A DNA stretch of 64,000 nt. It comes from Alphaproteobacteria bacterium. GTDB lineage: Bacteria; Pseudomonadota; Alphaproteobacteria; UBA2966. The notes beneath the pieces are model-generated. The model made no database searches. It saw nothing but the letters and a program-made list of their open reading frames with translations, and had not been told where the DNA came from. Every line of letters starts with the position of its first letter. The stretch's first letter is position 1. This document shows, one piece after another, positions 1-61,660 of this stretch. Made by a program: the position numbers and the translations under genes. The stretch spans positions 2,803,843 through 2,867,842 of the forward strand of contig OZ251449.1 in assembly GCA_965242505.1 (NCBI GenBank), in the 5' to 3' direction.

Positions 1-2404
1 GGCGCCGCCACAGCTCCTCGGCGATATGGGGCATCATGGGTCCGATCAGCCGGACCAGGGTCTCCAGGGCCTCCCGGAGCGCGGCGGCGGCGTCCGGCCG
101 TTCCTCTCCGTCCGGCGGCGTCCACGAACCCAGGACGTTGACGAACTCGTGGATCCGCGCCACCGCCTTGTTGAAGCGGAACGCCTCGATGTCGGCGCCG
201 ACCGCCGCGATCGTCCGGTGGGCGGCGCGGCGCAGCTCGCCGTCGGGGCCGTCCCCGGCGGCCGCCGGCCGGCCGCTCCCGGCCTCGCCGGCGTGGACGC
301 CCAGTTCCCGCGCCAGCCGCCACACCCGCTGCGTGAAGCGCCAGGCGCCCGCCACCCCGGCGTCCGTCCATTCCAGGTCGCGCTCCGGCGGACTGTCGGA
401 CAGCACGAACCAGCGGGCCGTATCGGCGCCGTACCGGTCGATGATGGAGCCCGGGTCGACGACGTTCTTCCTGGACTTGCTCATCGACTCCGAGCGGCCG
501 ACCTCGACGGGCGCGCCCGACTCCGCGAGCGCCGCCCGGCCGTCCGGGCTCCGCGCCACCTCCTCGGGATAGCGCCAGTTCCCGTCCCCGTCCCGATAGG
601 TCTCGTGGCAGACCATCCCCTGGGTGAACAGCCCCGCGAAGGGCTCGTCGAACCCGAGGTGGCCGCGGTCCTTCATGGCCCGCATGAAGAACCGGGAATA
701 CAGCAGGTGGAGGATGGCGTGCTCGATCCCGCCGACGTACTGGTCCACCGGCATCCAGTAGCGGATCGCGTCCCGGTCGACGGGGGCGTCGGCGCGCGGG
801 CAGCAGAAGCGGGCGAAGTACCACGACGAGTCCACGAAGGTGTCGAGGGTGTCCGTTTCGCGCAGGGCCGGCTTCCCGCACGCCGGACAGTCCACCCGCC
901 GCCAGGCCATGTGGTCGTCGAGGGGGTTTCCGGGCCTGTCGAAGGTGACGTCCTCCGGCAGGGCGACGGGCAGGTCCTGCTCGGGGACCGGCACGACGCC
1001 GCAGCCGTCGCAGTGGATCATGGGGATCGGGCAGCCCCAGTACCGCTGCCGGGACACTCCCCAGTCGCGGAGGCGGTAGTTGACCGCGCGCCGCCCCCTG
1101 CCCGCCCGTTCGAGCCTTTCGGCGACCGCCTCCTTCGCCGCGTCCACGGAGAGGCCGTCGAGGAACCGGGAATTGGCGAGGACGGCGCCGTCGGTCTCGA
1201 GGAAGGCCTCGCCGCCGACCCGGAACCGGGCGGCGTCCGCATCCTTGGGGACGACGACCGGCAGCACGGGAAGCCCGTACGCGCGCGCGAAGTCCAGGTC
1301 CCGCTGGTCGTGCGCGGGACAGCCGAAGACGGCCCCCGAGCCGTACTCCATCAGCACGAAGTTGGCGATGTAGACGGGCAGCTCCCTGCCTTCGTCGAAG
1401 GGGTGGCGGACCCGGAGGCCGGTGTCGCAGCCCTTCTTCTCGGCGGTCTCGACGGCTTCCTCGCTGGTTCCCATGCGGCGGCACTCGGCGACGAACGCCG
1501 CCGCCTCGGGGTCGCGCTCCGCCGCCTCGGAGGCGAGCGGGTGGTCGGCCGACAGGGCCATGAAGCTGGCGCCGAAGATGGTGTCGTGCCGCGTCGTGTA
1601 GACGTCGAGGACGTCGTCCCGCCCGACGATCTCGAAGGACATGGCGAGGCCCTCGGAACGGCCGATCCAGTTCCGCTGCATGGTCCGCACCCGGGGCGGC
1701 CAGCGGTCGAGCGCGTCGAGGGCCTCCAGGAGCTCGTCGGCGAACGCGGTGATCCTGAAGAACCACTGGCTCAGCCTGCGCTTCTCGACGGGAGCGCCGG
1801 ACCGCCAGCCGCGGCCGTCGATCACCTGCTCGTTCGCCAGCACCGTGCGGTCCGCCGGGTCCCAGTTGACCCACGATTCGCCCCGGTACGCGAGGCCGGC
1901 CTCGTACATGTCGAGGAACAGCTTCTGCTGGTGGGCGTAGTATCCGGGATGGCAGGTGGCCAGCTCCCGCGACCAGTCGAGCGACAGCCCCATCGCCTTG
2001 AGCTCGTCGCGCATGGTGGCGATGTTGCCGTAGGTCCACGCCGCCGGATGGACGTTCTGCTCCCGCGCCGCGTTCTCGGCGGGCAGGCCGAAGGCGTCCC
2101 AGCCCATGGGGTGCAGGACGCTGAACCCCATGGCCCGCTTGTGCCGCGCGACCACGTCCCCCAGCGTGTAGTTGCGGACGTGTCCCATGTGGATGCGCCC
2201 GGAGGGGTACGGAAACATCTCGAGGACGTAGTACTTCGGCTTGCCGGGGTCTTCGCGGGCCTCGAACGTGCGGCGCTCGGCCCAGATCCGTTGCCACTTC
2301 GCCTCCGTCCGCCGGGCGTCGTACCGGTCGCCGCGGGGGGCGGGCGGGTCCGCGGCGCCGGTCGGCGGGGCGTCGGCGGCCGCGGTCTCGGGGAGCGCCG
2401 TCAC
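1..2404 (-). CDS. leuS: Leucyl-tRNA synthetase, N-terminal about 800 aa; gene continues beyond the left window edge
   Basis: Reverse-strand translation gives [56 protein letters not shown] and the (E)SMSKS(R)KN motif, all class I LeuS signatures. It is absent from the ORF track because no stop falls in the window. The GTG start near 2404 gives [28 protein letters not shown]. The 1029-aa plus-strand ORF at 26..3115 is its antisense shadow. Confidence 0.9.
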
Positions 2405-2460
2405 GGGGAGGAGCGTTCCGCGGGCGCCGTCACGCCGGCGTCCTCCGCTCCGCCGTCCGC

Positions 2461-2523
2461 CTCCGGCGAAACCTCCGCCGTTCGCCTCCGGCGAAACCTC
2501 CGCCGTTCGCCTCCGGCGAAACC
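2461..2523. repeat. 25-bp direct tandem repeat (2.5 copies), ctccggcgaaacctccgccgttcgc, between the leuS start and the downstream small gene
   Basis: Read directly in sequence at 2461-2485, 2486-2510 and a partial copy at 2511-2523. Confidence 0.6.
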
Positions 2524-2526
2524 CGT

Positions 2527-2925
2527 TCACGCCGCGTCCTTCCGGCCGGTCACGGCGTCGCGCAGGCCGTCGATCAGGCCTTCGAGCCGGGCCATGCGCT
2601 GCTCGACGCCACCCATGCGCTGTTCGAGGCCGCCCATCCGTTGTTCGAGGCCATCCATGCGCCGCTCGAGACCGTCCATGCGCTGTTCGAGGCCGTCCAT
2701 GCGCCGCTCGAGGCCGTCGATGCGCTGGCCGAGGCCGTCGATGCGTTGCTCAAGGCCGTCGATGCGCTGGCCGAGGCGCTGTTCGAGACCGCCCATGCGC
2801 TGCTCGACGCCGTCGATGCGCTGGCCGAGGCGCTGCTCGATCTTGCCCACGTCCGCCCGCAGCCAGGCGAAGACGGCGACGATCAGGGTCGCCAGACCGA
2901 GGAGGCCGCCCAGTTCCGGGGTCAT
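2527..2925 (-). CDS. Small membrane-anchored protein (132 aa): N-terminal TM helix followed by about 12 degenerate octad repeats (Q/R)R(M/I)DGLEQ
   Basis: ORF starts [22 protein letters not shown] (hydrophobic helix) then runs ([11 protein letters not shown] / LEQRMDG) repeats. GGAG sits about 12 nt upstream of the ATG. An underlying 24-nt DNA periodicity is visible at 2590-2860. It follows the lipoprotein gene on the same strand. Confidence 0.5.
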
Positions 2926-2934
2926 GGCGGTTCC

Positions 2935-3486
2935 CTACTCCGGCGGAACGGCGTTCGCGCGCAGCTCGCGCGCGCGGGTGAGGATCGCGTTCTCCAGGTC
3001 CGTCGCCGTTCCGTCGCCCACGCCGCCGTCGACCCAGCGGTCGCCCGCCGCGAGCCGCTGCCGGAACACCGACACCTTCACGCCGTCCGCGCGCAGCTGG
3101 CGGTCGAGGATGTAGACCGTCATCTTGAAGCGTTCCGAGGGCGTCTCGGGAGGCGAGTACCAGTCGGTGATGATCACGCCGCCGAAGGGGTCGGCGGACG
3201 AGAGCGGCATGAACGAGACGGTGTCGAGCGAGGCCCGCCAGAGGAACGCGTTGACGCCGATGCCCCCGCCGTCCGACGACCGGGCGTCCGGGCCCCCGAA
3301 GAGGGGGATCCCGCCGCCGAACAGCCCGCCACCGTCGTCACCCTCGAACCGGGCCTTCCTGGGATCGTTGTCGACGTCGCCGACCTCCTCGATCGTCGGG
3401 TTCCCGCATCCGGCGGCGAGCAGCAGGACGCCGCCGAGAACGCCGGCCAGCAGGGGCCGCCCGCGCCGGGGTCCGAACGTCTTCAT
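2935..3486 (-). CDS. DUF3576-like lipoprotein (183 aa) with lipobox LAAGC
   Basis: Internal start MKTFGPRRGRPLLAGVLGGVLLLAAGCGNPT is a SPII signal with a Cys lipobox. GGGAGAcgccc-ATG is the RBS. The C-terminal GIGVNAFLWRASLDTVSFMPLSSADPFGGVIITDWY matches the DUF3576 family as I remember it. The longer N-terminal extension of the track ORF is Arg-rich and unlikely to be translated. Confidence 0.7.
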   Translation of the reverse strand: MKTFGPRRGRPLLAGVLGGVLLLAAGCGNPTIEEVGDVDNDPRKARFEGDDGGGLFGGGIPLFGGPDARSSDGGGIGVNAFLWRASLDTVSFMPLSSADPFGGVIITDWYSPPETPSERFKMTVYILDRQLRADGVKVSVFRQRLAAGDRWVDGGVGDGTATDLENAILTRARELRANAVPPE

Positions 3487-3737
3487 GGGCGTCTCCCGTC
3501 CCTGGGGTTCCGAATCCGTATCCGTCCACGGACGGCCTGCGGCGGCCGGAGCGCGCCGACGGCCAGGCCGGCGTCGGCGCGTTCTTCCCCGCGGGGCCCG
3601 ATTGTGCGACGGCCGGCCCCGGCGCGCAACCGGCTTGTCCTCGTTCAGGACATTCGCATCGTTCCCGCCCGACCCCCGCCCCCGACGCGACCCCCCCTTC
3701 CGTAGCGCGCGCGGCCGGCGGGGGGATGGGGCGCGGG

Positions 3738-4199
3738 TCAACCGGCGGCGGGGAGCAGCAGCTTGAGCAGGCCGAAGGTCAAGCCGGCGTTGGCGAGCAC
3801 GATCCCGACGGCGATGCCGACGAAGCGGACCGTCAACCGCGTTTCGAGGTTGGCCACGTCGGTCTTGAGTTCGGCCTTCGCTTCAGCGAGCTCGGCCTTC
3901 ACTTCGGCGAGCTCGGCCTTCGTCGCCATCCTGTTCTCGACGCGGGCGATGTCGGCTTTGACGGCGGCGAGTCCATTGTCCAGGTCGGTCCTGAGCGCGG
4001 TGAGGCCGGTATCGAGGTCCACCTTGGCGGCGGCGAGTCCCTTGTCGAGGTCGTCCTTGGTGGCGACGCCTTCCGCCACGGCGTCGCGGACGGCCTCGGC
4101 GTGCGCTTCGGCCTGGGCCTCGTCCACGCCGGCCGCCTTGAGGCGACGCGCGTAGGACAGCGTGTCGAAGCCGGTGGCGTGCGTGATCTTCATGGCCAT
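3738..4199 (-). CDS. DUF1640-family coiled-coil protein with C-terminal TM anchor (paralog 1, about 153 aa)
   Basis: MAMKITHATGFDTLSYARRLKAAGVDEAQAEAHAEAVRDAV... followed by K/E-rich coiled coil and the C-terminal hydrophobic RFVGIAVGIVLANAGLTFGLLKLL. The start was set at the MAMK motif shared with the paralog. Confidence 0.7.
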   Translation of the reverse strand: MAMKITHATGFDTLSYARRLKAAGVDEAQAEAHAEAVRDAVAEGVATKDDLDKGLAAAKVDLDTGLTALRTDLDNGLAAVKADIARVENRMATKAELAEVKAELAEAKAELKTDVANLETRLTVRFVGIAVGIVLANAGLTFGLLKLLLPAAG

Positions 4200-4615
4200 G
4201 GGGCCGAGGCTACACCGTCGCGGGGCCGTCCGCAAGCGCGCGTCCATGCGGACCCCCCTCCCCCCTCGTGTTTCTCCCTCCCCCCTGCCAGGGGGGAGGA
4301 GTGTGGATGGTCAGGGGGGAGGAGTGCGCGGGGCGAGGGTCGTTCGGCGGGTTCGGCTGGCGGTCCGGGCCTCGCGCGCCGCCATGGCCTCCTCCTGGCG
4401 GCGGAGCCTCTCCTCCTCGTAGCGGCGTTCGTCTCGGCCTCGCGTTTCCGCCTCATGTCTTCGTTGAAGCGGTCCATCCCGCGGAGGTCACGGCAGATGC
4501 CGATGATGATGATGACGTAGACGGCGACGGCGGCGGCCGCGATCCAGACGCCGGCGGTCGAGATCCAGTGGATCGTGTGTTGCGCGGTGAGGATGGCCTG
4601 TTCGGGCTCGGTCAT
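4190..4615 (-). CDS. Small membrane protein (the first 70 aa or so are convincing); the C-terminal tail is read-through of the REP element
   Basis: AAGGGAGAcgccc-ATG RBS. MTEPEQAILTAQHTIHWISTAGVWIAAAAVAVYVIIIIGICRDL is a TM helix. Downstream residues (PPDHPHSSPLAGG) are a typical REP translation, so the true stop and extent are uncertain. Confidence 0.4.
   Translation of the reverse strand: MTEPEQAILTAQHTIHWISTAGVWIAAAAVAVYVIIIIGICRDLRGMDRFNEDMRRKREAETNAATRRRGSAARRRPWRRARPGPPAEPAERPSPRALLPPDHPHSSPLAGGREKHEGGGGSAWTRACGRPRDGVASAPWP
4255..4340. repeat. REP-like palindromic elements (type A core CTCCCCCCTG(C/T)CAGGGGGGAG), 2 copies
   Basis: ctcccccctgccaggggggaggagtgtggatggtcaggggggaggagtgcgcgggg. 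The same family recurs across the window. Confidence 0.7.
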
Positions 4616-4654
4616 GGGCGTCTCCCTTCAGGCCAGGATGCTGCCGGATTGCCG

Positions 4655-4712
4655 CGAAGGCGGGAACCCCCCTCCCGGCCTCCCCCGCCAGGGGGGAGGG
4701 GCGCGTCGGGGC
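4655..4712. repeat. REP-like element (type A) immediately 3' of DUF1640 paralog 2
   Basis: cccctcccggcctcccccgccaggggggaggggcgcgtcggggcgcggg. Confidence 0.65.
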
Positions 4713-4717
4713 GCGGG

Positions 4718-5218
4718 TCAACCGGCGGCGGGGGGCAGCAGCTTGAGCAGGCCGAACGCCAAGCCGGCGTTGGCGAGCACGATCCCGACGGCGATGCCGA
4801 CGAAGCGGACCGTCAACCGCGTTTCGAGATTGGCCACGTCGGTCTTCGTCGCCATCTTGTCCTCGATGCGTTCGACCCTGCCTTCGAGGCGGGCGACGTC
4901 GGCCTTGAGCTCGGCCTTCACTTCGGCGAGCTCGGCCTTCGTCGCCATCCTGTCCTCGACGCGGGCGATATCGGCCCTGGTGGCGGCGAGTCCATTGTCC
5001 AGGTCGGTCCTGAGCGCGGTGAGGCCGGTATCGAGGTCCACCTTGGCGGCGGCGAGTCCCTTGTCGAGGTCGTCCTTGGTGGCGACGCCTTCCGTCACGG
5101 CGTCGCGGACGGCCTCGGCGTGCGCTTCGGCCTGGGCCTCGTCCACGCCGGCCGCCTTGAGGCGGCGCGCGTAGGTCAGCGTATCGAAGCCGGGAACGGG
5201 CGCGATCTTCATGGCCAT
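4718..5218 (-). CDS. DUF1640-family coiled-coil protein with C-terminal TM anchor (paralog 2, about 166 aa)
   Basis: MAMKIAPVPGFDTLTYARRLKAAGVDEAQAEAHAEAVRDAVTEGV... The N-terminal 70 aa and C-terminal 40 aa are almost identical to paralog 1 at both DNA and protein level, and the central coiled coil carries an extra repeat. The upstream part of the track ORF reads into the IS. Confidence 0.7.
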   Translation of the reverse strand: MAMKIAPVPGFDTLTYARRLKAAGVDEAQAEAHAEAVRDAVTEGVATKDDLDKGLAAAKVDLDTGLTALRTDLDNGLAATRADIARVEDRMATKAELAEVKAELKADVARLEGRVERIEDKMATKTDVANLETRLTVRFVGIAVGIVLANAGLAFGLLKLLPPAAG

Positions 5219-5271
5219 GGGGGCGAAGCTACACCGTCGCGGGGCTGTCCGCAAGCGCGCATCCATTGAGC

Positions 5272-6128
5272 AACCGGATAGATGGGTAACACTATAGACC
5301 GGATACATGGGTAACAGTGTTCCCGGTCTGTCCCGCTTCCGTGCGGCCCGGCCGGGCCGCACGGAAGCGGTGTAGCTTCTTCGACCTCCGATCGATGATC
5401 CCGAGGTCGACATCCGCGAAGCGGACGATCCAGTCGCCCCCGTCAGTCTCGGCCACGCCCACAGGCTCACCCCTCAGCGTCTCGCTGACGAAGACCAAGT
5501 CGCCGCCCCACTTGATGGAGCCATCGGTGCGGACCCGGCGCATCGCGTGCTCGGCATCGTACCAGGGCTCCTCCAGGCGCTCGGGATGACGCCGCGACGA
5601 CGACCGGTAGAACGCCGCAGGCGGCCTCTGCCCCAAGGCCTCATGCGGACGATGGACGTTGAAGTCCTGGCGGAAGCGGTCGAAGCGGGCCTGTTGCGCG
5701 TCCGCCGTCGCCGCCGGCGGCGTCGCGGTCTCGGCCTTCAACGTCCGATGCATCCGCTCATGCCTCCCGTTCTGCTGCGGCTGACCCCGCGCAATCCGCT
5801 CCACCGCGATCCCGGCCTTGATCCATTCCACCGACAGACGCGACAGACCCCCAGCCCCCGGACCGGCGAACGGCGCCCCGTTGTCCGAACGGATGGCCTC
5901 GGGAACCCCGTAGCGCCGGAACACCCGCCCCACCGCCGCCCCCACCGCAGCGGTCTGCGGCGGGACGATGACGCACGCCAACAGAAAGCGGCTGTAGGCG
6001 TCGGTGATCGTCAGCGGATCGCAGCGGACGCCGTCGCGGGTGCGAAACCACCCCTTGAAGTCGATGCACCACACGTCGTTGGGAGCCGCCACAGAGCGGA
6101 ACGGACGACACGTGCGTGGCCGAAACAT
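5272..6128 (-). mobile_element. 5'-truncated IS481-family IS copy (one terminal IR plus the C-terminal 278 aa of the transposase), inverted relative to the intact copy at about 14424-15748
   Basis: The ORF 5292..6128(-) product is 95% or more identical to residues about 134-411 of the transposase at 14491..15726 (CIDFKGWFRTRDGVRCDPLTITDAYSRF... DDE/rve domain). The terminal sequence gagcaaccggatagatgggtaacactatagaccggatacatgggtaacag at 5272-5320 is the reverse complement of the intact copy's right end. The N-terminal HTH part is missing. Confidence 0.85.
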
Positions 6129-6849
6129 GGGGCGGGGCCAGTTTCGGAAAATCCAGAACTGGATCGGCGCCCCGGGCTCCCCGATAGGAAAGGCCGATTT
6201 CGTCCCGCCGGCCCCGGAGACCCTGATGCCCGAACTGGATGCGTGGGAGAAGTACTATCACGCGGAATCCCCCGACGGACTCGTCCAAATGGCCGTGGTC
6301 CACGCTCAGTTCGAAATCATCCATCCCTTCCTGGACGGCAACGGGCGTATCGGACGCATTCTGATACCGCTGTTTCTCGCGGAGAAGAAACTCCTTTCGC
6401 GCCCGATGTTCTATCTATCGTCGTACCTTGAACGACACAGGGACGAATACGTCTCGGGGCTGCGCGCCCTCAGCCGACGGAACGATGGCTGGAACCTCTG
6501 GATAGGCTTCTTTCTGCGCGCGGTCGAGGAGGAAGCGCGAGCGAACGCCGACAAGGCGAAAGCGATCATCGACCTCTACGCGGACCTGAAGGAGAGGGTG
6601 CTGGCTCTCACGCACTCACAATACGCCATCCCGCTCCTCGACCAGATGTTCGAGCGCCCGTTGTTCCGGAGCGCGATGCTTCGGTTTCCCGACGGTCTCG
6701 CGCCGAGTCGGCAGGCCGTGTCCCATCTGCTTCGTCAGTTGCGCAGCAGCGGCATCCTGAAGGTCCTGCGAGAAGGTCGGGGAAGACGCGCCCAAATCCT
6801 GGTCCTGGCCGAGCTCGTCAACATCTGCGAGGGCGAGGAGATCGTTTAG
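6129..6849 (+). pseudogene. Fic/DOC family protein (AMPylase-type), 5'-truncated at the junction with the IS fragment
   Basis: Canonical Fic motif HPFLDGNGRIGR in ...AVVHAQFEIIHPFLDGNGRIGRILIPLFL. The homologous reading frame begins abruptly at about 6128 (..QNWIGAPGSPIGKADFVPP..) with no N-terminal about 100 aa and no own start. Upstream residues of the track ORF are antisense IS sequence. Confidence 0.7.
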
Positions 6850-6892
6850 GCCGCATTTCTCATACCGGCAGGGATCGGAGATTGCGCGGCGT

Positions 6893-6960
6893 TGCGGGGC
6901 CGCGGACCCCCCTCCCGACCTCCCCCCTGCCAGGGGGGAGGAGTGCGCGGGGCGGGGGTC
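6893..6960. repeat. REP-like element (type A)
   Basis: cccccctcccgacctcccccctgccaggggggaggagtgcgcggggcggggg. Confidence 0.7.
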
Positions 6961-7010
6961 GTTCGGCGGCGGGGGAGCAGCAGCTTGAGCAGGCCGAACG
7001 CCAAGCCGCC
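6961..7010 (-). pseudogene. About 45-bp remnant of a DUF1640 gene 3' end (third, fragmentary copy)
   Basis: ggcggcgggggagcagcagcttgagcaggccgaacgccaagccg nearly matches the 3' ends of the paralogs at 3738-3790 and 4718-4770 (encoding ..GLAFGLLKLLPPAAG). As with those paralogs, it sits right beside a REP. Confidence 0.55.
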
Positions 7011-7191
7011 TGCGCCGGGTGTGGCGAAAAAGCCACATTCCGTGTCGTTCTCGCCCGCGGCGCGCGGTTCCGCCGCCGAACCCGCGGATTCCCGTTGATT
7101 CGGCGGAACGGCGCGTGCTTACGTTGAAGGGCGCAAAGACGCGTCGTATGGTTTTTGGCCAAACAACCCTGTTGGTTACGGAGGATCACGA

Positions 7192-8289
7192 ATGAAAACG
7201 CACAAGAGCAGGCTTCTCGCCACCAGCGCTCTGGCGGGCGCCGGGATGGCGCTTCCGGGCGTCGCGGCGGCCGAGATGATGAAGCCGGCCCTCTCGGTGG
7301 GCGGCTACCTCTGGCACGACACCCACTTCGCCAGCCAGGACATGGACGAGAACAAGAGCTCCGTCCTGCACCATGTCGACTCCGAGGTCCACTTCAAGCT
7401 GGCCGGCGAGCTCGACAACGGCCTCAAGATCGGCGGGCGCATCGAGCTCGAGAGCCAGACCGGCGGCGACCAGATCGACGAGACCTGGCTCGACCTTTCG
7501 GGCGCGTGGGGGATGCTCAGGTTCGGGAACAAGAACTCCGGGCGCTACGTCCACAGCTGGTCGGCGACGGGCCCGAACGTGTCCCACGGCGTCACCTCGG
7601 GCGTGACGACGGAATGGCTGGTTCTCCCTGAGGGTGTCGGCGCTGGCCTCTTCTTCCGCAAGCCGCTCGGCTCGGCCCACCCCGACGTCTCGAACGACGA
7701 CCCGGCCCTCACCTACTTCACGCCGCGCTTCAACGGCTTCCAGATCTCGGTGACCCACCGCCCCGAAATCCAGAACACGGGCGGCAAGAACATCGGGACG
7801 AGCGGGTCGGACGACACGGCGAACTACACCAACGCGCTCGACGGCTCGGTCCAGTACTCCGGCGACGTGGGCGGCATGAAGGTCGCCCTCGTGCTCGGCG
7901 CGGGCTCGGCCGGCGGTCCGGACGGCGCGGAGGACTACCAGGTCGTCAACGGCGGCGCCAAGGTCACCGCCAGCGGCTTCAGCTTCGGCGGCCACATGGC
8001 CGACGTGGAAGACGACATGAACAACGCCACCGGCACGGCGTACAGCGTCGGCGCGAGCTACGGGCAGGGCCCGTGGGCGGTGAGCGCGACGTTCCACGAT
8101 GGCGAGGTCGACGGCACCGTCGCCGACCCCGACAGCAGCGAGTTGTCGGTGTGGGCCCTGGGCACGAAATACACCCTCGGTCCGGGCGTGCGCCTCCTGG
8201 CGTCGTACCAGAACGCGGAGGTGACCTCGGAGCTCGGCGGCAGCAACGAGGGTTCGGCATTCACCGCGGGCGTCGCGGTCAACTTCTGA
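7192..8289 (+). CDS. Outer-membrane porin (alphaproteobacterial general porin type), 365 aa
   Basis: GGAGG RBS 7 nt upstream. Signal peptide MKTHKSRLLATSALAGAGMALPGVAAA. Gly/Ser/Thr-rich amphipathic beta-strand composition and a C-terminal ...AGVAVNF ending in Phe. The strong hairpin terminator follows. Confidence 0.8.
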   Translation: MKTHKSRLLATSALAGAGMALPGVAAAEMMKPALSVGGYLWHDTHFASQDMDENKSSVLHHVDSEVHFKLAGELDNGLKIGGRIELESQTGGDQIDETWLDLSGAWGMLRFGNKNSGRYVHSWSATGPNVSHGVTSGVTTEWLVLPEGVGAGLFFRKPLGSAHPDVSNDDPALTYFTPRFNGFQISVTHRPEIQNTGGKNIGTSGSDDTANYTNALDGSVQYSGDVGGMKVALVLGAGSAGGPDGAEDYQVVNGGAKVTASGFSFGGHMADVEDDMNNATGTAYSVGASYGQGPWAVSATFHDGEVDGTVADPDSSELSVWALGTKYTLGPGVRLLASYQNAEVTSELGGSNEGSAFTAGVAVNF

Positions 8290-8496: not shown

Positions 8497-8760
8497 ATGC
8501 CGACATATCTCATCGCCTTGAATGCGCCGGATTCCGCGGTGTGGAAACGAGTCGAGTCGGTTTGGCCCGACGACCATTTCCTTCTCACGGATTGCCTGGC
8601 ATTCGTGTCCGAGGATGATCCCAACCTTCTTACGCAGGACATCGCCGAAAACCTGGGGATGACCGCGGAGGGGAACGTTCTCGGCCTGGTGACGGAGGTG
8701 AAAGGCCTGGCGGGACGCAACTCCACGTCGTTTGCCGAGTGGTTGAGTAAACGCTCATGA
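8497..8760 (+). CDS. Small acidic hypothetical protein (87 aa); first gene of a low-GC two-gene cassette
   Basis: MPTYLIALNAPDSAVWKRVESVWPDDHFLL... GGAAGAG lies upstream. Local GC is about 55-58% against about 70% for the flanks. The stop overlaps the next start (ATGA). Confidence 0.5.
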   Translation: MPTYLIALNAPDSAVWKRVESVWPDDHFLLTDCLAFVSEDDPNLLTQDIAENLGMTAEGNVLGLVTEVKGLAGRNSTSFAEWLSKRS

Positions 8761-9071
8761 GCGACCGCAGCGAAAACGTGGTGGATCTGGAAAAGAATCC
8801 CAGGAATCTCCAAGGGTCAGGCAGTGGCGGCGGGAACGGAAACCTCACACGGCACAGGCTGAACGACCTGGAACGCCGCATGGAGAAGCTGGAAAGCAAG
8901 GTGGATGATCTGATCGGTCTTTGCGCCAGGATCGACGAGAAACTGAATGAAGTCGCGAGCAAGAGTTACGTCTTGCGGATCCTGTGCGTAACCGTAGTGG
9001 TAACCATAGGGGGTTCACTCGCGACCGTCATCGTCCATGCCATCATGAGAACCTTGGTCCCTGTTTCCTGA
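8757..9071 (+). CDS. Tail-anchored coiled-coil membrane protein (104 aa; N-terminal coiled coil and C-terminal TM, XhlA/holin-accessory-like architecture)
   Basis: ..LTRHRLNDLERRMEKLESKVDDLIGLCARIDEKLNEVASKSYVLRILCVTVVVTIGGSLATVIVHAIM. Same low-GC islet, translationally coupled to the upstream gene. The family assignment is architectural only. Confidence 0.45.
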   Translation: MSDRSENVVDLEKNPRNLQGSGSGGGNGNLTRHRLNDLERRMEKLESKVDDLIGLCARIDEKLNEVASKSYVLRILCVTVVVTIGGSLATVIVHAIMRTLVPVS

Positions 9072-9258
9072 ACCCGTTCATCCATGAAAGCCCGCCGGGG
9101 TGGAGGATTTTCGCGGCGCTCCCGACCGGAACGTCATGGCGGCGGTTCCCCGGCCGGCGTCGGCGTCGGCGGGCGCGATCATGGTGCCGGCGCGGGCCGA
9201 AACGGCTTCCCGTTCGCGCGGAAATCCGGTAGCGTCCCGGCCTGAAGGGAGAGCCGCC

Positions 9259-9630
9259 ATGGACGAATACCAGGCCGCCACGCTTGCGATCCGGACCTAC
9301 GCCCTCTGGGCCGCCTACGGACAGGTCGCCGCCACCCTCGTGATCGGCAGCGGCCAGATCGCCGTCGTCTTGTACGGCATCCGCGCCATGATCCGCGCCA
9401 ACAGGGAACGCGCCGTCATCCTCGACCAACAGCATCAGGCCGACGACAAGCGCCACGAGGAGGCCATGGCCGAGGGGGCCCGCCGCCACGAGGAGGCCAT
9501 GGCGGCGCTCGCCGAACTGGTCCGGGACGGCCGGCGCCAGACCGCCGCCCTCGACGAATCGATCCGGGCCAGCCAACGCCAGACCGCGGCCCTCGACGAA
9601 CTGCTCCGCCGCTCCGCGCCCGCCGAGTGA
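9259..9630 (+). CDS. Small membrane protein (123 aa): N-terminal TM helix plus a cytoplasmic coiled coil with internal duplications (HEEAMA x2, RQTAALDE x2)
   Basis: AAGGGAGAgccgcc-ATG RBS. MDEYQAATLAIRTYALWAAYGQVAATLVIGSGQIAVVLYGIRAMI... The upstream part of the track ORF has no RBS. Confidence 0.5.
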   Translation: MDEYQAATLAIRTYALWAAYGQVAATLVIGSGQIAVVLYGIRAMIRANRERAVILDQQHQADDKRHEEAMAEGARRHEEAMAALAELVRDGRRQTAALDESIRASQRQTAALDELLRRSAPAE

Positions 9631-14039: not shown

Positions 14040-14410
14040 CGGTCGCGCGCCTGCTCCTCCAGCGGCTTCGTTCGCGCCCCGCTCCGCCGCCGCGACCCCC
14101 ACCCCGACCCTCCCCCTGCAAGGGGGAGGGAAAACGATCAGGGAAGGGAGGGGGAGGAGCCGTTGACGATGACGCCTCTCCCCCCCTGACCATTGATACT
14201 CCTCCCCCCTGACAGGGGGGTCCGCGCGGCCCCGCGACGCCGTTCGCGCTTCGCTCCACCGCCGTGACCCCCACCCCGACCCTCCCCCTGCAAGGGGGAG
14301 GGAGAACGATTGGGGAGGGAAAAGGGAAGGGGCCGTTGACGATGACGCCTCGCCCCCCCCCCTGACCATTCATACTCCTCCCCCCTGACAGGGGGGAGGT
14401 CGGGAGGGGG
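14040..14410. repeat. Cluster of 6 or more REP-like elements (types A and B alternating) between hemE and the IS
   Basis: gacccccaccccgaccctccccctgcaagggggagggaaaacg..., ctcccccctgacaggggggtccgcg..., repeated twice with about 170-bp periodicity. Confidence 0.75.
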
Positions 14411-14423
14411 GTCCGCGGGGTAC

Positions 14424-15748
14424 AGACCGGATAGAAAGGTAACAGTTCAGACCGGATACATGGGTAACAGGTTAGAGGGTTGGTCGGGAGGTGCGGGAGG
14501 TGCGGCCGATGCCTTGGAAGGAGACCTGTCCGATGGACGAGAAGCTGGTTTTCGTTGCCGATTATCTGCGTGGCGAGTGGTCGATGACGGCGCTGTGCGA
14601 GCACTACGGCATCAGTCGCAAGACCGGGTACAAGTGGCTTGGACGGTATCGCGGCGACGGCCCGGAGGGTCTGGTCGAGCGGTCGCGTGCGCCGCGTCGC
14701 CATGGTCGGTCGATGGCGCCGTCGGTGGCCGAGGCGATCGTCGCCTTGCGCCGCACGCGTCCGCACTGGGGTCCGCGCAAGCTGCGGGCGGTGTTGGTGA
14801 GTCAGCGCCCCGAGGTGGCGTGGCCGGCGGCCAGCACGATGGGCGACCTGCTGCGCGCGGAGGGTCTGGTGGCGCGCCGTCGCCGGCGCCGTCGGATGGC
14901 GGCTCCGTGTCGTCCGTTCCGCCCTGTGGCGGCCCCTAACGACGTGTGGTGTATCGACTTCAAGGGGTGGTTTCGCACCCGCGACGGCGTCCGCTGCGAT
15001 CCGCTGACGATCACCGACGCCTACAGCCGCTTTCTGCTGGCGTGCGTCATCGTCCCGCCGCAGACCGCAGCAGTGGGGGCGGCGGTGGGGCGGGTGTTCC
15101 GGCGCTACGGGGTTCCCGAGGCCATCCGTTCGGACAACGGGGCGCCGTTCGCCGGTCCGGGGGCTGGGGGTCTGTCGCGTCTGTCGGTGGAATGGATCAA
15201 GGCCGGGATCGCGGTGGAGCGGATTGCGCGGGGTCAGCCGCAGCAGAACGGGAGGCATGAGCGGATGCATCGGACGTTGAAGGCCGAGACCGCGACGCCG
15301 CCGGCGGCGACGGCGGACGCGCAACAGGCCCGCTTCGACCGCTTCCGCCAGGACTTCAACGCCCATCGTCCGCATGAGGCCTTGGGGCAGAAGCCGCCTG
15401 CGGCGTTCTACCGGTCGTCGGAGCGGCGTCATCCCGAGCGCCTGGAGGAGCCTTGGTACGATGCCGAGCACGCGATGCGCCGGGTCCGCACCGATGGCTC
15501 CATCAAGTGGGGCGGCGACTTGGTCTTCGTCAGCGAGACGCTGAGGGGCGAGCCGGTGGGCGTGGCCGAGACTGACGGGGGCGACTGGATCGTCCGCTTC
15601 GCGGATGTCGACCTCGGGATCATCGATCGGAGGTCGAAGAAGCTACACCGCTTCCGTGCGGCCCGGCCGGGCCGCACGGAAGCGGGACAGACCGGGAACA
15701 CTGTTACCCATGTATCCGGTCTATAGTGTTACCCATCTATCCGGTTGC
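14424..15748 (+). mobile_element. Intact IS481-family insertion sequence (about 1.3 kb) with terminal inverted repeats of about 45-50 bp
   Basis: IRL about 14426-14472 (cagaccggatagaaaggtaacagttcagaccggatacatgggtaacag) and IRR about 15700-15746 (its near-perfect reverse complement). A single transposase ORF lies between them. Confidence 0.85.
14491..15726 (+). CDS. IS481-family transposase (N-terminal HTH plus DDE/rve integrase core), 411 aa
   Basis: ..LCEHYGISRKTGYKWLGRYR (HTH), ..VWCIDFKGWFRTRDGVRCDPLTITDAYSRF..SDNGAPF..MHRTLK (rve). A second start at M7 is possible. Confidence 0.9.
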   Translation: MREVRPMPWKETCPMDEKLVFVADYLRGEWSMTALCEHYGISRKTGYKWLGRYRGDGPEGLVERSRAPRRHGRSMAPSVAEAIVALRRTRPHWGPRKLRAVLVSQRPEVAWPAASTMGDLLRAEGLVARRRRRRRMAAPCRPFRPVAAPNDVWCIDFKGWFRTRDGVRCDPLTITDAYSRFLLACVIVPPQTAAVGAAVGRVFRRYGVPEAIRSDNGAPFAGPGAGGLSRLSVEWIKAGIAVERIARGQPQQNGRHERMHRTLKAETATPPAATADAQQARFDRFRQDFNAHRPHEALGQKPPAAFYRSSERRHPERLEEPWYDAEHAMRRVRTDGSIKWGGDLVFVSETLRGEPVGVAETDGGDWIVRFADVDLGIIDRRSKKLHRFRAARPGRTEAGQTGNTVTHVSGL

Positions 15749-16172
15749 TCACGGCCTCGCGACGCCGTTTGCGCTCCGCTCCTCCGGCATGACCAAAACA
15801 GAATCAGATAGAATAAAAGAGATAGTGGCTGTAGATGCGCGGTGATCCATGGGGATTCTTTTCGGTTCGGGACTTGTCCAGCGGCCGGTCGGGACGCGGT
15901 TCGGGGCGGCGGGCTCCGCGGGAGTCCGCGTGGATATCTTCCGGGAGCCGCGGAACGGGAGGCGGGAGCGGGCGCGTGAAATCCGGTGACAACGTGAACG
16001 CGGTTCGCGGCCCGGCGGGTCGTTCACGTATTCGGATGCGTACGGGACGTTCCGTCCACAGCTTGACGGACCGGGGAGAGGATTCGCGCGTCCGGGGATC
16101 GATTCGCCGGCGGCCCGGCCCGGCGGAGTTGTCCCGATCTTCCGGGCCGGTTGTCCACGGCCCGCGTCTCCC

Positions 16173-19904: not shown

Positions 19905-20290
19905 GGCGCGACCCCCGCCCCGGTTCTCCCCCTGACGCGATCCACGCTCCTCCCCCTGGCCGTCCATACTCCTCCCCCCTGACAGGGGGGAGGTCGGGAG
20001 GGGGGTCCGCGGCCCCGCGACGCCGTTCGCGCTCGGCTCCACCGGCGTGACCCCCACCCCGACCCTCCCCCTGCAAGGGGGAGGGAGAAGAGAGGGGCGC
20101 CGGAGAGTCCGTCGGCGTTCCTTCCCGCTGACCGTTCATACTCCTCCCCCCTGACAGGGGGGAGGTCGGGAGGGGGGTCCGCGGCCCCGCGACGCCGTTC
20201 GTGATCGGCTCCACCGGCGTGACCCCCACCCCGACCCTCCCCCTGCAAGGGGGAGGGAGAAGAAAGGGGAGGGGGAAGGGGGACGGAGGG
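19905..20290. repeat. Cluster of about 6 REP-like elements (types A and B alternating, 2 composite units)
   Basis: ctcccccctgacaggggggaggtcgggagggggg...gacccccaccccgaccctccccctgcaagggggagggagaag... repeated. Confidence 0.75.
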
Positions 20291-37146: not shown

Positions 37147-37209
37147 CTTTTGGGCGATTTCCCCGCATTTCCCATGCTGGCGGGGATCGAGGAGCGCGCG
37201 GCGTCGTGG

Positions 37210-37335
37210 GGCCGCGGCCCACCCCCCTCCCGACCTCCCCCCTGTCAGGGGGGAGGAGTGTGGATGGCGCCCTCCGTCCTCCTCGTTCTCCCTCTCCCTT
37301 GCAGGGGGAGGGTCGGGGTGGGGGTCGCGCCAGGG
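37210..37335. repeat. REP-like elements (type A and type B)
   Basis: cccccctcccgacctcccccctgtcaggggggaggagtgtggatgg...ccctctcccttgcagggggagggtcggggtgggggtcgcgccagggggg. Confidence 0.7.
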
Positions 37336-51886: not shown

Positions 51887-52029
51887 ATGACCCTATCCTA
51901 TCACGAACGACGCCGCAAGGTCAAGATTCGTCCCGGTTCAATACATAAACATACGAACATATGAGACGCCGCGCAGGCCGCATTGTCTCATGCCGGGGGT
52001 GGGCCGAGGATCGCGCGGCGTTGCGGGGC

Positions 52030-52100
52030 GACGGAGACCCCCCTCCCGACCTCCCCCCTGTCAGGGGGGAGGAGTGTGGATGGTCAGGGGGGAGGAACGC
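52030..52100. repeat. REP-like element (type A)
   Basis: cccccctcccgacctcccccctgtcaggggggaggagtgtggatggtcaggggggagg. Confidence 0.7.
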
Positions 52101-54299: not shown

Positions 54300-54770
54300 C
54301 TCCGTTGGGGGGCGGGTTCGGCGCGCCGATCCGCACACTTCGCACACCTTCCGGGACCTCGTTCTCCCTCTCCTGTTCTCCCTCTCCCTTCCAATCCGCA
54401 CACCTCGCACACCGGCAGGGACCCCCCTCCCGACCTCCCCCCTGCCAGGGGGGAGGAGTTTGAAAGGGGATCCGCACACTCCGCACACCCTCCCGTCCTT
54501 TTTATTTCTCCCTCTCCCTTGCAGGGGGAGGGTCGGGGTGGGGGTCACCGGCGTTGCGGCGGGGCGCGTCCATCCGGACCCCCCTCCCGACCTCCCCCCT
54601 GTCAGGGGGGAGGAGTATGGATGGGCAGGGGGAGAAGTGTGGATGGGCAGGGGGGAGGAGTTTGAAAGGGGATCCGCACACTCCGCACACCCTCCCGTCC
54701 CTTTTATTTCTCCCTCCCCCTGGCAGGGGGAGGGTCGGGGTGGGGGTCGCGCCGATCCGCACACTCCGCA
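54300..54770. repeat. Cluster of 7 or more REP-like elements (types A and B), including a duplicated block of about 170 bp
   Basis: tctccctctcccttcc..., cccctcccgacctcccccctgccaggggggaggagtttgaaaggggatccgcacactccgcacaccctcccgtcc...ccctctcccttgcagggggagggtcggggtgggggtc; the block at 54400-54560 recurs at 54590-54760. Confidence 0.75.
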
Positions 54771-56284: not shown

Positions 56285-56440
56285 GTCCAGGGTCCGTTCG
56301 CGCTCCTCTCCCCCGGCGCGACCCCCACCCCGACCCTCCCCCTGCAAGGGGGAGGGAGAACGAGGGGGACGGGGGGCCGTTGACGCTCCTCCCCCCTGAC
56401 AGGGGGGAGGTCGGGACGGGGGTGGATCGCGATCCCGCAA
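56285..56440. repeat. REP-like elements (type B, type A)
   Basis: gacccccaccccgaccctccccctgcaagggggagggagaacgagggggacgg...cctcccccctgacaggggggaggtcgggacggggg. Confidence 0.7.
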
Positions 56441-56482
56441 CACCGCGCAATCCTCGATCCCTGCCGGCATGAGAAATGCGGG

Positions 56483-60519: not shown

Positions 60520-61660
60520 CGTATGCGCTCCTCTCCCCTGCCGTGACCCCCACCCCGACCCTCCCCCTGCAAGGGAGAGGGAGAACAAGAGGGGACGGGA
60601 AAGGGCCATTGACGCTCCTCCCCCCCTGACCATCCATACTCCTCCCCCCTGACAGGGGGGAGGTCGGGAGGGGGGTCCGCGGCCCCGCAACGCCGTTCGC
60701 GCTCCGCTCCCCTGGCGTGACCCCCACCCCGACCCTCCCCCTGCAAGGGGGAGGGAGAAGAAGGGGGGACGCGGAGGGAGCCGTCGACGCTCCTCCCCCC
60801 TGACAGGGGGGAGGTCGGGAGGGGGGTCCGCGGCCCCGCAACGCCGTTCGCGCTCCGCTCCCCTGGCGCGACCCCCACCCCGACCCTCCCCCTGCAAGGG
60901 GGAGGGAGAACGTAAGGGGACGCGGAGGGAGCCGTCGACGCTCCTCCCCCCTGACCATCCATGCTCCATCCCCCCCTGCCCCCCTGACCATCCATACTCC
61001 TCCCCCCTGACAGGGGGGAGGTCGGGAGGGGGGTCCGCGGCCCCGCAACGCCGCCGTTCGCGCTCCGCTCCTCTGGCGTGACCCCCACCCCGACCCTCCC
61101 CCTGCAAGGGAGAGGGAGAACAAGAGGGGACGGGAAAGGGCCATTGACGCTCCTCCCCCCTGACCATCCATGCTCCATCCCCCCTGACCATCCATACTCC
61201 TCCCCCCTGACAGGGGGGAGGTCGGGAGGGGGGTCCGCGGCCCCGCAACGCCGCCGTTCGCGCTCCGCTCCCCTGGCGCGACCCCCACCCCGACCCTCCC
61301 CCTGCAAGGGAGAGGGAGAACAAGAGGGGACGGGAGGAGGGCGGACCGCGGCCCCGCAACGCCGTTCGCGCTCCGCTCCCCTGGCGGGACCCCCACCCCG
61401 GCCCTCCCCCTGCAAGGGAGAGGGAGAACAAGAGGGGACGGGAGGGGGGTGGACGCGGCCCGCAACGCCGTTCGCGCTCCGCTCCTCTGGCGTGACCCCC
61501 ACCCCGGCCCTCCCCCTGCAAGGGAGAGGGAGAAGAAGGGGGGAGGTCGGGAGGGGGGTGGACGCGATCCTGCAACGCCGTTCGCGCTCCGCTCCCCTGG
61601 CGTGACCCCCACCCCGACCCTCCCCCTGCAAGGGGGAGGGAGAACGTAAGGGGATGGAGG
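60520..61660. repeat. About 1.1-kb tandem array of 7 or more composite REP/BIME-like units (each about 110-210 bp, holding one type B and one type A palindrome plus a conserved linker ccgcggccccgcaacgccgttcgcgctccgctcccctggcg)
   Basis: The units start at about 60523, 60675, 60826, 61039, 61237, 61348, 61448 and 61570. Some carry an extra insert, ctgaccatccatgctccatcccccctgaccatccatactcc. No unique spacers are present. Confidence 0.85.

What the first reader, a model, noticed from the sequence alone, without database searches (positions are those of the whole stretch)
3700..7010. Tandem DUF1640 paralogs plus a third 45-bp 3' fragment, each directly followed by a REP element
Two DUF1640 coiled-coil, tail-anchored proteins (3738-4199 and 4718-5218) share near-identical 5' and 3' ends at the DNA level but differ in the number of central K/E-rich heptad segments. 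A third remnant of the 3' end occurs at 6961-7010.

In all three places a type A REP abuts the gene's 3' end. This suggests either REP-mediated recombination driving duplication and repeat-number change, or co-mobility of the REP with the gene tail. The variable central coiled coil is a classic target for length variation.
Basis: seen in the sequence. Interest (0 to 1): 0.5.

Follow-up and report, generated by a model that had tools for sequence, protein, structure and literature searches.

The report
Duplicated coiled-coil membrane genes among REPs
Two near-identical copies and one 12-codon remnant of a small membrane-anchored coiled-coil gene sit in a stretch crowded with short palindromic repeats; this is ordinary gain, loss and length change in a multi-copy gene family, and the repeats are more likely bystanders than the cause.

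Summary
Both genes lie on the minus strand: A at 3738-4199 (153 aa) and B at 4718-5218 (166 aa). They are 95-97% identical in DNA at both ends, and the match runs 48 nt upstream of the start. They differ by a replaced central segment (21 nt in A, 60 nt in B). 6972-7008 is a real 37-nt remnant of a third copy's 3' end, not REP consensus.

A REP starts at the stop codon of B and of remnant C. Behind A there is only a degenerate relic; the strong REP cluster at 4248-4349 lies upstream of A.

The proteins are DUF1640/CCDC90-like: a conserved head, beta-layer motifs (VATKDD, MATKAE, MATKTD), a variable stalk and a C-terminal membrane anchor. Their Pfam scores fall just under the curated cut-off.

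In REP-free relatives the same family forms tandem arrays of 5-7 copies, shows headless 3' remnants, and has stalks of 14-109 residues. About half of this genome's mid-sized spacers carry a REP.

The best reading is unequal recombination and decay in a cassette-like multigene family. A REP was copied along with the gene tail at least once (B and C share 104 nt at 89%). REP-driven duplication is possible but neither needed nor shown. This is a new member of a known kind, of modest interest.

The parts
3738..4199 (-). DUF1640/CCDC90-like gene A, 153 aa. It has a conserved head (res 10-44), beta-layer motifs VATKDD (45-50) and MATKAE (91-96), three DLDxGL 11-residue units, heptads, and a C-terminal membrane anchor (about 124-146).
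4200..4247 (-). Conserved 48-nt block upstream of gene A (CTTGCGGACGG...GGTGTAGCCT-N7-ATG). It is shared with B (4 differences) and with paralogs in L007, L010, L011 and L014. It may be a promoter for a leaderless mRNA; this is inference.
   Evidence: the consensus promoter scan found nothing
3655..3737 (.). 3' flank of A: a degenerate REP relic made of C-runs and G-runs, with no intact core. The first 14 nt (TGACCCGCGCCCC) are shared with B and L007.
   Evidence: fold no better than shuffles, z +0.41
4248..4349 (.). REP type-A cluster (full core at 4277-4299 plus a half unit at 4312-4334). It lies between the small ORF and gene A, upstream of A. 4312-4350 is 97% identical to 6931-6969.
4350..4615 (-). 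Small N-terminally anchored coiled-coil ORF, apparently frameshifted and lacking its stop. It has a paralog at 9100-9630(+). The same family's 3' end precedes the DUF1640 gene in L007.
4660..4717 (.). Diverged REP directly behind gene B. The TGA stop forms the first 3 nt of the REP outer-stem flank.
4718..5218 (-). DUF1640/CCDC90-like gene B, 166 aa. It matches A but carries an extra beta-layer module (MATKTD at 122-127) in the replaced centre.
5219..5266 (-). Conserved upstream block of gene B. Homology with A ends exactly where the IS fragment begins.
5267..6112 (-). Truncated IS copy (rve-type transposase, C-terminal two thirds), 98.3% identical to 14906-15751 of the full copy.
6113..6849 (+). 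Fic (protein adenylyltransferase) gene lacking about its first 150 codons. It converges on remnant C.
6851..6971 (.). Long-form REP type A with a perfect core at 6919-6941. It fills the space between the Fic stop and remnant C. Its outer stem pairs GACCCCCGCCCCG with CGGGAGGGGGGTC.
   Evidence: (-51.9 kcal/mol, z -2.4)
6972..7009 (-). Remnant C: the last 12 codons (GLAFGLLKLLLP) of a third DUF1640 copy. It is cut off at 7009/7010, where the upstream region of the gene at 7192-8289(+) begins.

Best explanation
The locus is a decaying cluster of a lineage-specific multigene family of DUF1640/CCDC90-like proteins.

Each gene is a compact cassette with four parts:
- a conserved block of about 48 nt upstream of the start;
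- a strongly conserved head of about 45 residues;
- a modular stalk;
- a C-terminal membrane anchor.

The stalk is built from 11-residue DLDxGL units, heptads and beta-layer modules of the MATKxD kind. By analogy with solved MATKDD constructs it would form a trimeric alpha/beta coiled coil.

Because the ends are nearly identical among copies and the stalk is internally repetitive, homologous recombination does three things:
- it duplicates cassettes (A and B);
- it swaps or resizes the stalk (21 nt vs 60 nt);
- it deletes copies down to 3' stubs (C).

IS activity has further scrambled this locus, leaving a truncated IS fused to a truncated Fic gene.

The palindromic REP elements are a very abundant genome-wide population. 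They fill most sizeable spacers of this lineage, often starting at the stop codon. They were carried along when B and C were copied, but they are not required for the process.

What is shown: the sequence relationships, the family behaviour in relatives, and the REP abundance. What is inferred: the recombination mechanism, trimer formation, and the promoter/leaderless reading.
For: - A and B share 95-97% DNA identity at both ends, including the upstream block, and have a replaced centre.
- The remnant's tail is unique to the three sites.
- Six or more paralogs occur in the same 3.67-Mb genome. Among 108 of the top 120 homologs, stalks run from 14 to 109 residues; those 120 proteins are 84-180 aa long.
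- Tandem arrays occur in L003 (5 heads) and L008 (7 heads). Headless TM-tail remnants lie behind full genes in L001, L002, L008 and L012/13. None of these loci carries these REPs.
- L007 has the same neighbour and the same upstream block as gene A, but a B-like stalk lacking two 11-residue units. Stalk content therefore differs at what looks like the same position in a related strain.
- The beta-layer motif [aliphatic]-A-T-K-x-[DE] is reported for DUF1640 (PMC4786415). The AF2 monomer model is low-confidence (pLDDT 59), but its helix breaks fall at both ATK motifs.
- REP background: 18 type-A and 21 type-B copies in 64 kb, and 12 of 23 spacers of 60-700 nt are occupied.
Against: - In REP-bearing relatives, 12 of 14 scorable cassette flanks carry a REP. 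This is above the roughly 50% background. It is biased, however, by short contigs that end in repeats and by shared ancestry.
- Three of the four A/B homology boundaries coincide with a REP or REP relic, so a REP role in the exchange cannot be excluded.
- The source genome outside the window could not be retrieved, so its other paralogs were not inspected.
- A and B differ at 11 nonsynonymous vs 4 synonymous codons. There is no clear sign that both copies are under purifying selection.
Confidence: 0.62

Rival explanations
1. REP-mediated ectopic recombination is the driver. Dispersed identical REP hairpins flanking each cassette act as portable homology, so cassettes are duplicated, deleted and moved by REP-to-REP exchange. 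This is the process classically described for tandem duplications joined at REPs in Salmonella (from my own knowledge, not checked here).
For: - REPs or REP relics lie at both ends of the cassettes in the window and in L007, L010, L011, L014 and L017.
- A/B homology ends at or next to REP sequence on three of four sides.
- 4312-4350 and 6931-6969 share a 39-nt REP-plus-flank stretch at 97%, although they lie behind different genes. This hints at exchange between REP sites.
Against: - The same duplications, remnants and length changes occur in relatives without these REPs.
- REP type and orientation differ between paralog flanks.
- About half of comparable spacers have REPs anyway.
- The stalk change lies inside the gene, far from any REP.
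- No hybrid join-point REP was demonstrated.
Confidence: 0.2
2. Co-mobility: the last codons of the gene belong to a mobile REP-type element (REPIN-like), so the fragment at 6972-7008 was deposited by transposition rather than left by deletion.
For: - The TGA stop of A and B is the first triplet of the REP outer-stem flank (TGACCCnnnCCCCG).
- B and C share a colinear 104-nt REP-plus-tail block.
Against: - Of the 18 type-A flank sites, none outside the DUF1640 locus carries the tail motif.
- Paralogs with other tails (…KLIP, …KLLP) end in TAG, 7-10 nt before their REPs.
- No REP-associated transposase was seen in the window (weak test).
Confidence: 0.05
3. Programmed variation: silent partial copies serve as donors for gene conversion that changes the stalk length of an expressed copy.
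For: - Modular stalks and several anchor classes are shuffled among paralogs.
- Partial copies recur next to full genes.
- Nonsynonymous changes outnumber synonymous ones between A and B.
Against: - Remnant C holds only 12 anchor codons and no stalk modules, so it could not donate stalk variation.
- The proteins lack a signal peptide, so the head would face the cytoplasm, where host- or phage-driven variation is not expected (inference).
- No recombinase or other dedicated machinery is adjacent.
Confidence: 0.08
4. Assembly artefact: repeats were collapsed or mis-joined in a metagenome-assembled genome, creating the apparent remnant and truncated genes.
For: - The closest genomes found are metagenome-assembled chromosomes, so the source probably is too.
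- The region contains repeats, a frameshifted small ORF and truncated genes.
Against: - A and B differ at 19 positions plus the centre, so they are distinct loci.
- Independent assemblies from other samples show the same kinds of remnants and REP flanks.
Confidence: 0.05

Closest known systems
DUF1640 / CCDC90-like family (Pfam PF07798; mitochondrial MCUR1 and CCDC90B; prokaryotic membrane proteins with a beta-layer at the start of the stalk, Hartmann et al. 2016, PMC4786415)
   Same: - Head plus coiled-coil stalk plus single C-terminal membrane helix.
- The [aliphatic]-A-T-K-x-[DE] motif sits exactly at the head/stalk junction (VATKDD).
- The HMM match covers head and proximal stalk (E 1.7e-7).
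- The 169-aa database entry identical to A over A's full length carries a precomputed PF07798 annotation.
   Different: - Scores are 31.7 and 30.1 bits, under the 33.5-bit gathering score.
- The proteins are much shorter than the eukaryotic ones.
- Extra internal beta-layer modules and 11-residue DLDxGL units are present.
- There are many paralogs per genome, with stalks of 14-109 residues.
- Function in bacteria is unknown.
Thermosinus Tcar0761-type alpha/beta coiled coils (repeated MATKDDIAN nonads; PMC4786415)
   Same: Repeated MATKxD/E modules lie within a coiled-coil stalk: A has 2, B has 3, and P0002 has 3.
   Different: Here the modules are separated by long heptad and 11-residue segments rather than forming consecutive nonads. 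No structure is available, and the AF2 monomer model is low-confidence.
REP / BIME / REPIN elements of Enterobacteria and Pseudomonas (PMC2817692, PMC3116915)
   Same: - Short G+C-rich imperfect palindromes, extragenic and in very high copy number.
- They occur in alternating arrays (60553-61644) and often right behind stop codons.
- An IS is inserted into one of them (14426-15745), as reported for ISPpu9 in P. putida REPs (PMC12288879).
   Different: - The sequences differ (CCTCCCCCCTGNCAGGGGGGAGG and CCCTCCCCCTGCAAGGGGGAGGG, with C-rich and G-rich outer stems).
- No GTAG-type head was recognised.
- No RAYT transposase was found in the window.
- The host is an uncultured alphaproteobacterium.
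Tandem duplications joined at REP sequences in Salmonella (classical genetics; recalled from my own knowledge, not checked here)
   Same: Duplicated segments are bounded by REP elements.
   Different: No hybrid REP at a join-point is shown. The duplicates are separated by another ORF, and REP-free relatives duplicate the same genes.

Membership tests
DUF1640 / CCDC90-like (PF07798) | Profile match at or above Pfam's gathering score | tested here: not met
   31.7 bits (A) and 30.1 bits (B) against a cut-off of 33.5. E-values are 1.7e-7 and 5.4e-7, over model positions 1-106 of 175. The 169-aa database version, and most homologs, carry a precomputed PF07798 hit. Homology is therefore likely, but strict membership by score is marginal.
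DUF1640 / CCDC90-like (PF07798) | Beta-layer motif [aliphatic]-A-T-K-[polar]-[DE] at the beginning of the stalk (PMC4786415) | tested here: met
   VATKDD at residues 45-50 of A and B. 106 of the 120 top homologs carry at least one such motif.
DUF1640 / CCDC90-like (PF07798) | Single C-terminal transmembrane helix (integral membrane protein) | tested here: met
   A hydrophobic stretch, RFVGIAVGIVLANAGLTFGLLKLL, is followed by 4-5 residues. There is no N-terminal hydrophobic segment. This rests on sequence only; no topology predictor was run.
DUF1640 / CCDC90-like (PF07798) | Trimeric coiled-coil stalk | not testable with these tools
   The monomer AF2 model has pLDDT 59 and shows long helices broken at both ATK motifs. 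No related solved structure was found by sequence.
REP / REPIN elements | Short G+C-rich imperfect palindrome able to form a stable hairpin | tested here: met
   Core CCTCCCCCCTGNCAGGGGGGAGG. The copy behind remnant C folds at -51.9 kcal/mol, z -2.4. The copies behind B and A fold no better than shuffles.
REP / REPIN elements | High copy number, confined to extragenic space, often in alternating arrays | tested here: met
   18 type-A and 21 type-B copies in 64 kb against 0 expected. 12 of 23 spacers of 60-700 nt are occupied, and none of the 9 spacers under 60 nt. There is a 1.1-kb array at 60553-61644. Gene calls were crude.
REP / REPIN elements | Cognate RAYT (Y1 transposase) and a conserved GTAG-like head recognised by it | tested here: inconclusive
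   tblastn with a RAYT sequence recalled from memory found nothing in the window. RAYTs are usually single-copy, so 64 kb is uninformative. No GTAG head is evident in the consensus.
REP-joined tandem duplication | Hybrid REP at the duplication join-point, with the duplicated segment running from REP to REP | tested here: inconclusive
   The A/B block runs from 14 nt past the stop to 48 nt before the start. Its neighbours are a REP cluster, a diverged REP, a REP relic and an IS end. No hybrid could be recognised because the REP copies are too alike or too decayed.

The most novel reading that the evidence does not exclude
These cassettes could be a natural set of membrane-anchored rulers. In this reading, a clade of uncultured Alphaproteobacteria keeps many self-promoted, possibly leaderless genes. 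Each has one invariant head and a trimeric alpha/beta coiled-coil stalk whose length is tuned from 14 to 109 residues by module shuffling. REP hairpins overlapping the stop codons would serve both as transcript ends and as recombination hot spots that spread the cassettes. Because the family is the bacterial counterpart of mitochondrial MCUR1/CCDC90B, it could also bear on where that scaffold came from.
Probability: 0.1. Interest if true: 0.55.

Novelty: new member of a known kind. Interest (0 to 1): 0.27.

Why it matters
If the main reading is right, this is a clean small example of birth and death in a bacterial multigene family. It shows duplication, stalk resizing by module exchange, and decay to a 12-codon stub, all within 3.3 kb.

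It also documents a very dense REP population of two related types in an uncultured alphaproteobacterium. In that population an IS has inserted into a REP, and stop codons are embedded in REP stems.

The family's natural series of stalk lengths and beta-layer counts could interest people who study coiled-coil design or the bacterial relatives of MCUR1/CCDC90B. It opens no new question by itself.

Tried and rejected
- **Source genome not retrievable.** Exact-sequence look-ups of A, B, the 169-aa annotated form (P0001) and paralog P0009 found no contig on record. The other paralogs of the same genome (P0009, P0016, P0021, P0053) could therefore not be inspected for REP flanks.
- **Rfam.** No match on 2400-7400 at E <= 1.
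- **Promoter and terminator scan.** No promoter was found, and terminator-like sites were at the chance level. The promoter/leaderless idea therefore rests only on conservation of the upstream block.
- **PDB sequence search.** Only spurious haemoglobin and fusion-tag hits.
- **Structure prediction.** The monomer model had low confidence (pLDDT 59), so no fold search was run on it.
- **NCBIfam.** Nothing meaningful for A or B.
- **PHROGs.** Only families of unknown function.
- **RAYT search.** Negative, but a weak test.
- **Rejected: the 6961-7010 match is REP consensus.** The tail motif is absent from all other REP copies.
- **Rejected: a REP abuts the 3' end of A.** Only a relic is there.


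Full report
**What is in the sequence**

The window is about 70% G+C. The genes of the finding lie on the minus strand. Gene A is 3738-4199 (153 aa from MAMKITH…). Gene B is 4718-5218 (166 aa). A six-frame search found no other full copy in the 64 kb. It found one short match at 6972-7007 encoding GLAFGLLKLLLP.

At the DNA level, A and B match in two blocks:
- 97% over 139 nt (3728-3866 vs 4708-4846);
- 94.7% over 360 nt (3888-4247 vs 4907-5266).

The second block runs 48 nt beyond the start codon. The first runs 10 nt past the stop codon (14 nt counted from its T). Between the blocks the sequence is replaced rather than merely lengthened. A has 21 nt (AEAKAEL) and B has 60 nt (KADVARLEGRVERIEDKMAT). 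In the colinear parts, 11 codons differ nonsynonymously and 4 synonymously.

**The third fragment**

6972-7008 is 97% identical to B's last codons. A 23-nt tail motif occurs exactly three times in the window, with none expected. The window holds 18 type-A and 21 type-B REP copies, and none outside the DUF1640 locus is followed by this motif.

BLAST joins REP and tail into one colinear block shared by B and C (6906-7008 vs 4666-4766, 89% over 104 nt). The remnant stops at 7009/7010, where the upstream region of the gene at 7192-8289 begins.

**The REPs**

Two related elements populate the window:
- type A: GGACCCCCCTCCCGA | CCTCCCCCCTGNCAGGGGGGAGG | AGTRT;
- type B: TGACCCCCACCCCGA | CCCTCCCCCTGCAAGGGGGAGGG | AGAAC.

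In the copy behind remnant C, the C-rich flank pairs with a G-rich flank (CGGGAGGGGGGTC) around the core. This gives a long hairpin (-51.9 kcal/mol, z -2.4).

The TGA stop of A and B is the first triplet of such a flank (TGACCCGCGCCCCG). A REP thus starts at the stop codon of B (a diverged copy whose fold is no better than shuffles) and of C (perfect core).

Behind A there is only a relic of C-runs and G-runs (3655-3737). No core is found there within 3-4 mismatches, and the fold is no better than shuffles. The conspicuous cluster at 4248-4349 lies upstream of A and behind a small ORF. So 'a REP abuts the 3' end in all three places' is true for two places and only vestigially for the third.

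**Is the REP adjacency special?**

I made crude gene calls based on third-position G+C. By these, 12 of 23 spacers of 60-700 nt carry at least one REP, and none of the 9 spacers under 60 nt does. Against a background of about one half, REPs in three of the four or five spacers of this locus are unremarkable.

I then looked at contigs from other samples that carry the same REP types (L007, L010, L011, L014, L017). There, DUF1640 cassettes at different genomic positions are almost always REP-flanked. Together with the window, 12 of 14 scorable flanks have one.

That is above background, but three things weaken it:
- most of these contigs are short and end in repeats;
- several flanks are clearly co-inherited;
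- in L014 every spacer above 100 nt has a REP, whichever genes flank it.

REP type and orientation behind the stop also differ from paralog to paralog: A-type minus, B-type minus, A-type plus, or half-A plus B. This fits repeated colonisation better than one tail-plus-REP unit moving about.

**What the proteins are**

Pfam PF07798 (CCDC90-like, formerly DUF1640) matches head and proximal stalk at E 1.7e-7 and 5.4e-7. The scores (31.7 and 30.1 bits) are just under the 33.5-bit cut-off. The 169-aa database protein that is identical to A over A's full length (it starts at an upstream ATG), and most homologs, carry a precomputed PF07798 annotation.

Hartmann et al. (PMC4786415) reported that DUF1640 membrane proteins carry a beta-layer motif, [aliphatic]-A-T-K-[polar]-[DE], at the start of their stalk. 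In solved constructs, MATKDD-type elements interrupt trimeric coiled coils with a three-residue beta layer.
- A has VATKDD (45-50) and MATKAE (91-96).
- B has these plus MATKTD (122-127) inside its B-specific segment.

A low-confidence AlphaFold monomer model (pLDDT 59) shows two short head helices and two long helices. The breaks fall at both ATK motifs.

The stalk also contains three 11-residue DLDxGL units and heptads (21-nt periodicity). The C-terminus is a single hydrophobic helix followed by 4-5 residues, and there is no N-terminal signal. 'Tail-anchored' is therefore a fair description from sequence.

No solved relative was found by sequence. NCBIfam has no model, and PHROGs gives only unknown-function families.

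**The family elsewhere**

The homolog search returned 531 proteins. The closest genomes are complete metagenome-assembled chromosomes of uncultured Alphaproteobacteria. At least six paralogs belong to the same 3.67-Mb genome.

Among the top 120:
- the head (GFDTLxYARRLKxAGVDExQAEAHAEAVRDA) is nearly invariant;
- length runs from 84 to 180 aa;
- the head-to-anchor distance runs from 14 to 109 residues (median 33.5, measurable in 108 proteins), with A at 78 and B at 91;
- several distinct anchor classes are combined with different stalks.

In relatives that lack these REPs:
- L003 carries five tandem copies;
- L008 carries seven heads in a row with spacers of 50-70 nt;
- headless anchor-only remnants sit directly behind full genes in L001, L002, L008 and L012/13.

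Tandem duplication, stalk resizing and decay to 3' stubs are therefore traits of the family itself.

L007 has the same upstream neighbour (the 3' end of a small N-anchored coiled-coil gene), the same REP position and the same upstream block as gene A. Its stalk, however, is B-like and lacks two 11-residue units.

**Local history**

Between B and C lie two truncated elements:
- a truncated IS (5267-6112), 98.3% identical to part of the full copy at 14426-15745;
- fused to it, a Fic gene lacking about its first 150 codons (6113-6849).

A/B homology ends exactly at the IS end (5266/5267). The small ORF between A and B (4350-4615) appears frameshifted and has lost its stop. Its paralog at 9100-9630 is intact. 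The locus is thus a rearranged, partly decayed stretch.

One detail remains open. 4312-4350 (behind the small ORF) and 6931-6969 (behind remnant C) share 39 nt at 97%, including 14 nt outside the REP proper. This could reflect exchange between REP sites or a further lost copy. I could not decide between these.

**Mechanism and verdict**

The best-supported account is unequal homologous recombination and deletion within a cassette-like multigene family. Its nearly identical ends and internally repetitive stalk make it prone to copy-number and length change. A genome-wide REP population occupies the spacers and is sometimes copied along (confidence about 0.6).

REP-to-REP recombination as the driver remains possible (about 0.2) but is neither necessary nor demonstrated. 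Co-mobility of tail and REP, programmed variation, and assembly error are each unlikely.

A conserved block lies upstream of the genes (CTTGCGGACGG…GGTGTAGSCT, then 6-7 nt, then ATG). It is shared by paralogs at unrelated loci. This suggests each cassette has its own promoter and possibly a leaderless mRNA. The consensus scan did not call a promoter there, so this is inference only.

The finding is a new member of a known kind: real, tidy and of modest interest.

Noticed in passing
2527-2925 (-), and 2448-2523: A 132-aa protein with an N-terminal membrane helix, followed by about ten tandem 21-nt (7-aa, GLEQRMD-like) units. Pfam DUF7310 matches at E 5e-13. Just beside it are three direct repeats of 25 nt (CTCCGCCGTYCGCCTCCGGCGAAACC).
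   Followed up: partly
whole window; e.g. 60553-61644, 54419-54740, 19971-20261, 14102-14414: Two related REP types (18 A-type and 21 B-type copies in 64 kb) form alternating arrays of up to 1.1 kb. About half of all 60-700-nt spacers carry one. A long form of type A (about 95 nt) recurs at 6851-6945, 37163-37260, 51975-52076 and 56386-56481.
   Followed up: partly
14426-15745 and 5267-6112: An IS of about 1.3 kb has an rve-type transposase and doubled 19-nt end motifs (ACCGGATAnATGGGTAACA). It is inserted inside the linker next to a type-A REP (GGGGGGTCCGCGG | IS | GGCCTCGCGACGCCGTT). The second copy is truncated and 98.3% identical. REP-targeting ISs are known in Pseudomonas (PMC12288879).
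   Followed up: partly
6113-6849 (+): A Fic-type protein adenylyltransferase gene lacks roughly its first 150 codons (it matches NCBIfam model positions 150-354 of 361). It is fused to the truncated IS and is probably a pseudogene.
   Followed up: partly
4350-4615 (-), 9100-9630 (+); L007 1-60; L014 3790-3880: A second small family has an N-terminal membrane helix plus a coiled coil and ends …RQTAxL…PAE. It lies next to DUF1640 genes in the window, in L007 and, as a remnant, in L014. The window copy at 4350-4615 looks frameshifted and stop-less. The two small families may be linked.
   Followed up: partly
8757-9071 (+): Another small ORF (104 aa) has a coiled-coil segment and a C-terminal hydrophobic helix. 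No NCBIfam match. It adds to a local concentration of small membrane-anchored coiled-coil proteins.
   Followed up: no
4200-4247 and 5219-5266 (-); L007 127-175; L010 1745-1782; L011 1355-1390; L014 3480-3520: A conserved block (CTTGCGGACGG…GGTGTAG[C/G]CT, then 6-7 nt, then ATG) lies upstream of DUF1640 paralogs at unrelated loci. REP-free relatives have TTGACG-N17/18-TAGCGT-N6-ATG instead. There is no Shine-Dalgarno-like sequence. This suggests own promoters and leaderless mRNAs, but the consensus scan did not call a promoter.
   Followed up: partly
3735-3740, 4715-4720; L007 625-640: The TGA stop codon of genes A, B and the L007 gene is the first triplet of the REP outer-stem flank (TGACCCnnnCCCCG). 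Paralogs with other tails stop at TAG 7-10 nt before their REP. In L002 a TAG-to-CAG change extends the tail by four codons (LLKLLPQAAP).
   Followed up: partly
L015 3480-3800: In a REP-free relative, a DUF1640 gene is preceded by the last codons of an earlier copy (…CTGCTTCCGTAG, ending 12 nt before the ATG). Its TGA stop overlaps a GTG that opens the next copy (MTATTFDAYAAA…). A terminase-like gene and an SSB gene are nearby, so a prophage context is possible.
   Followed up: no
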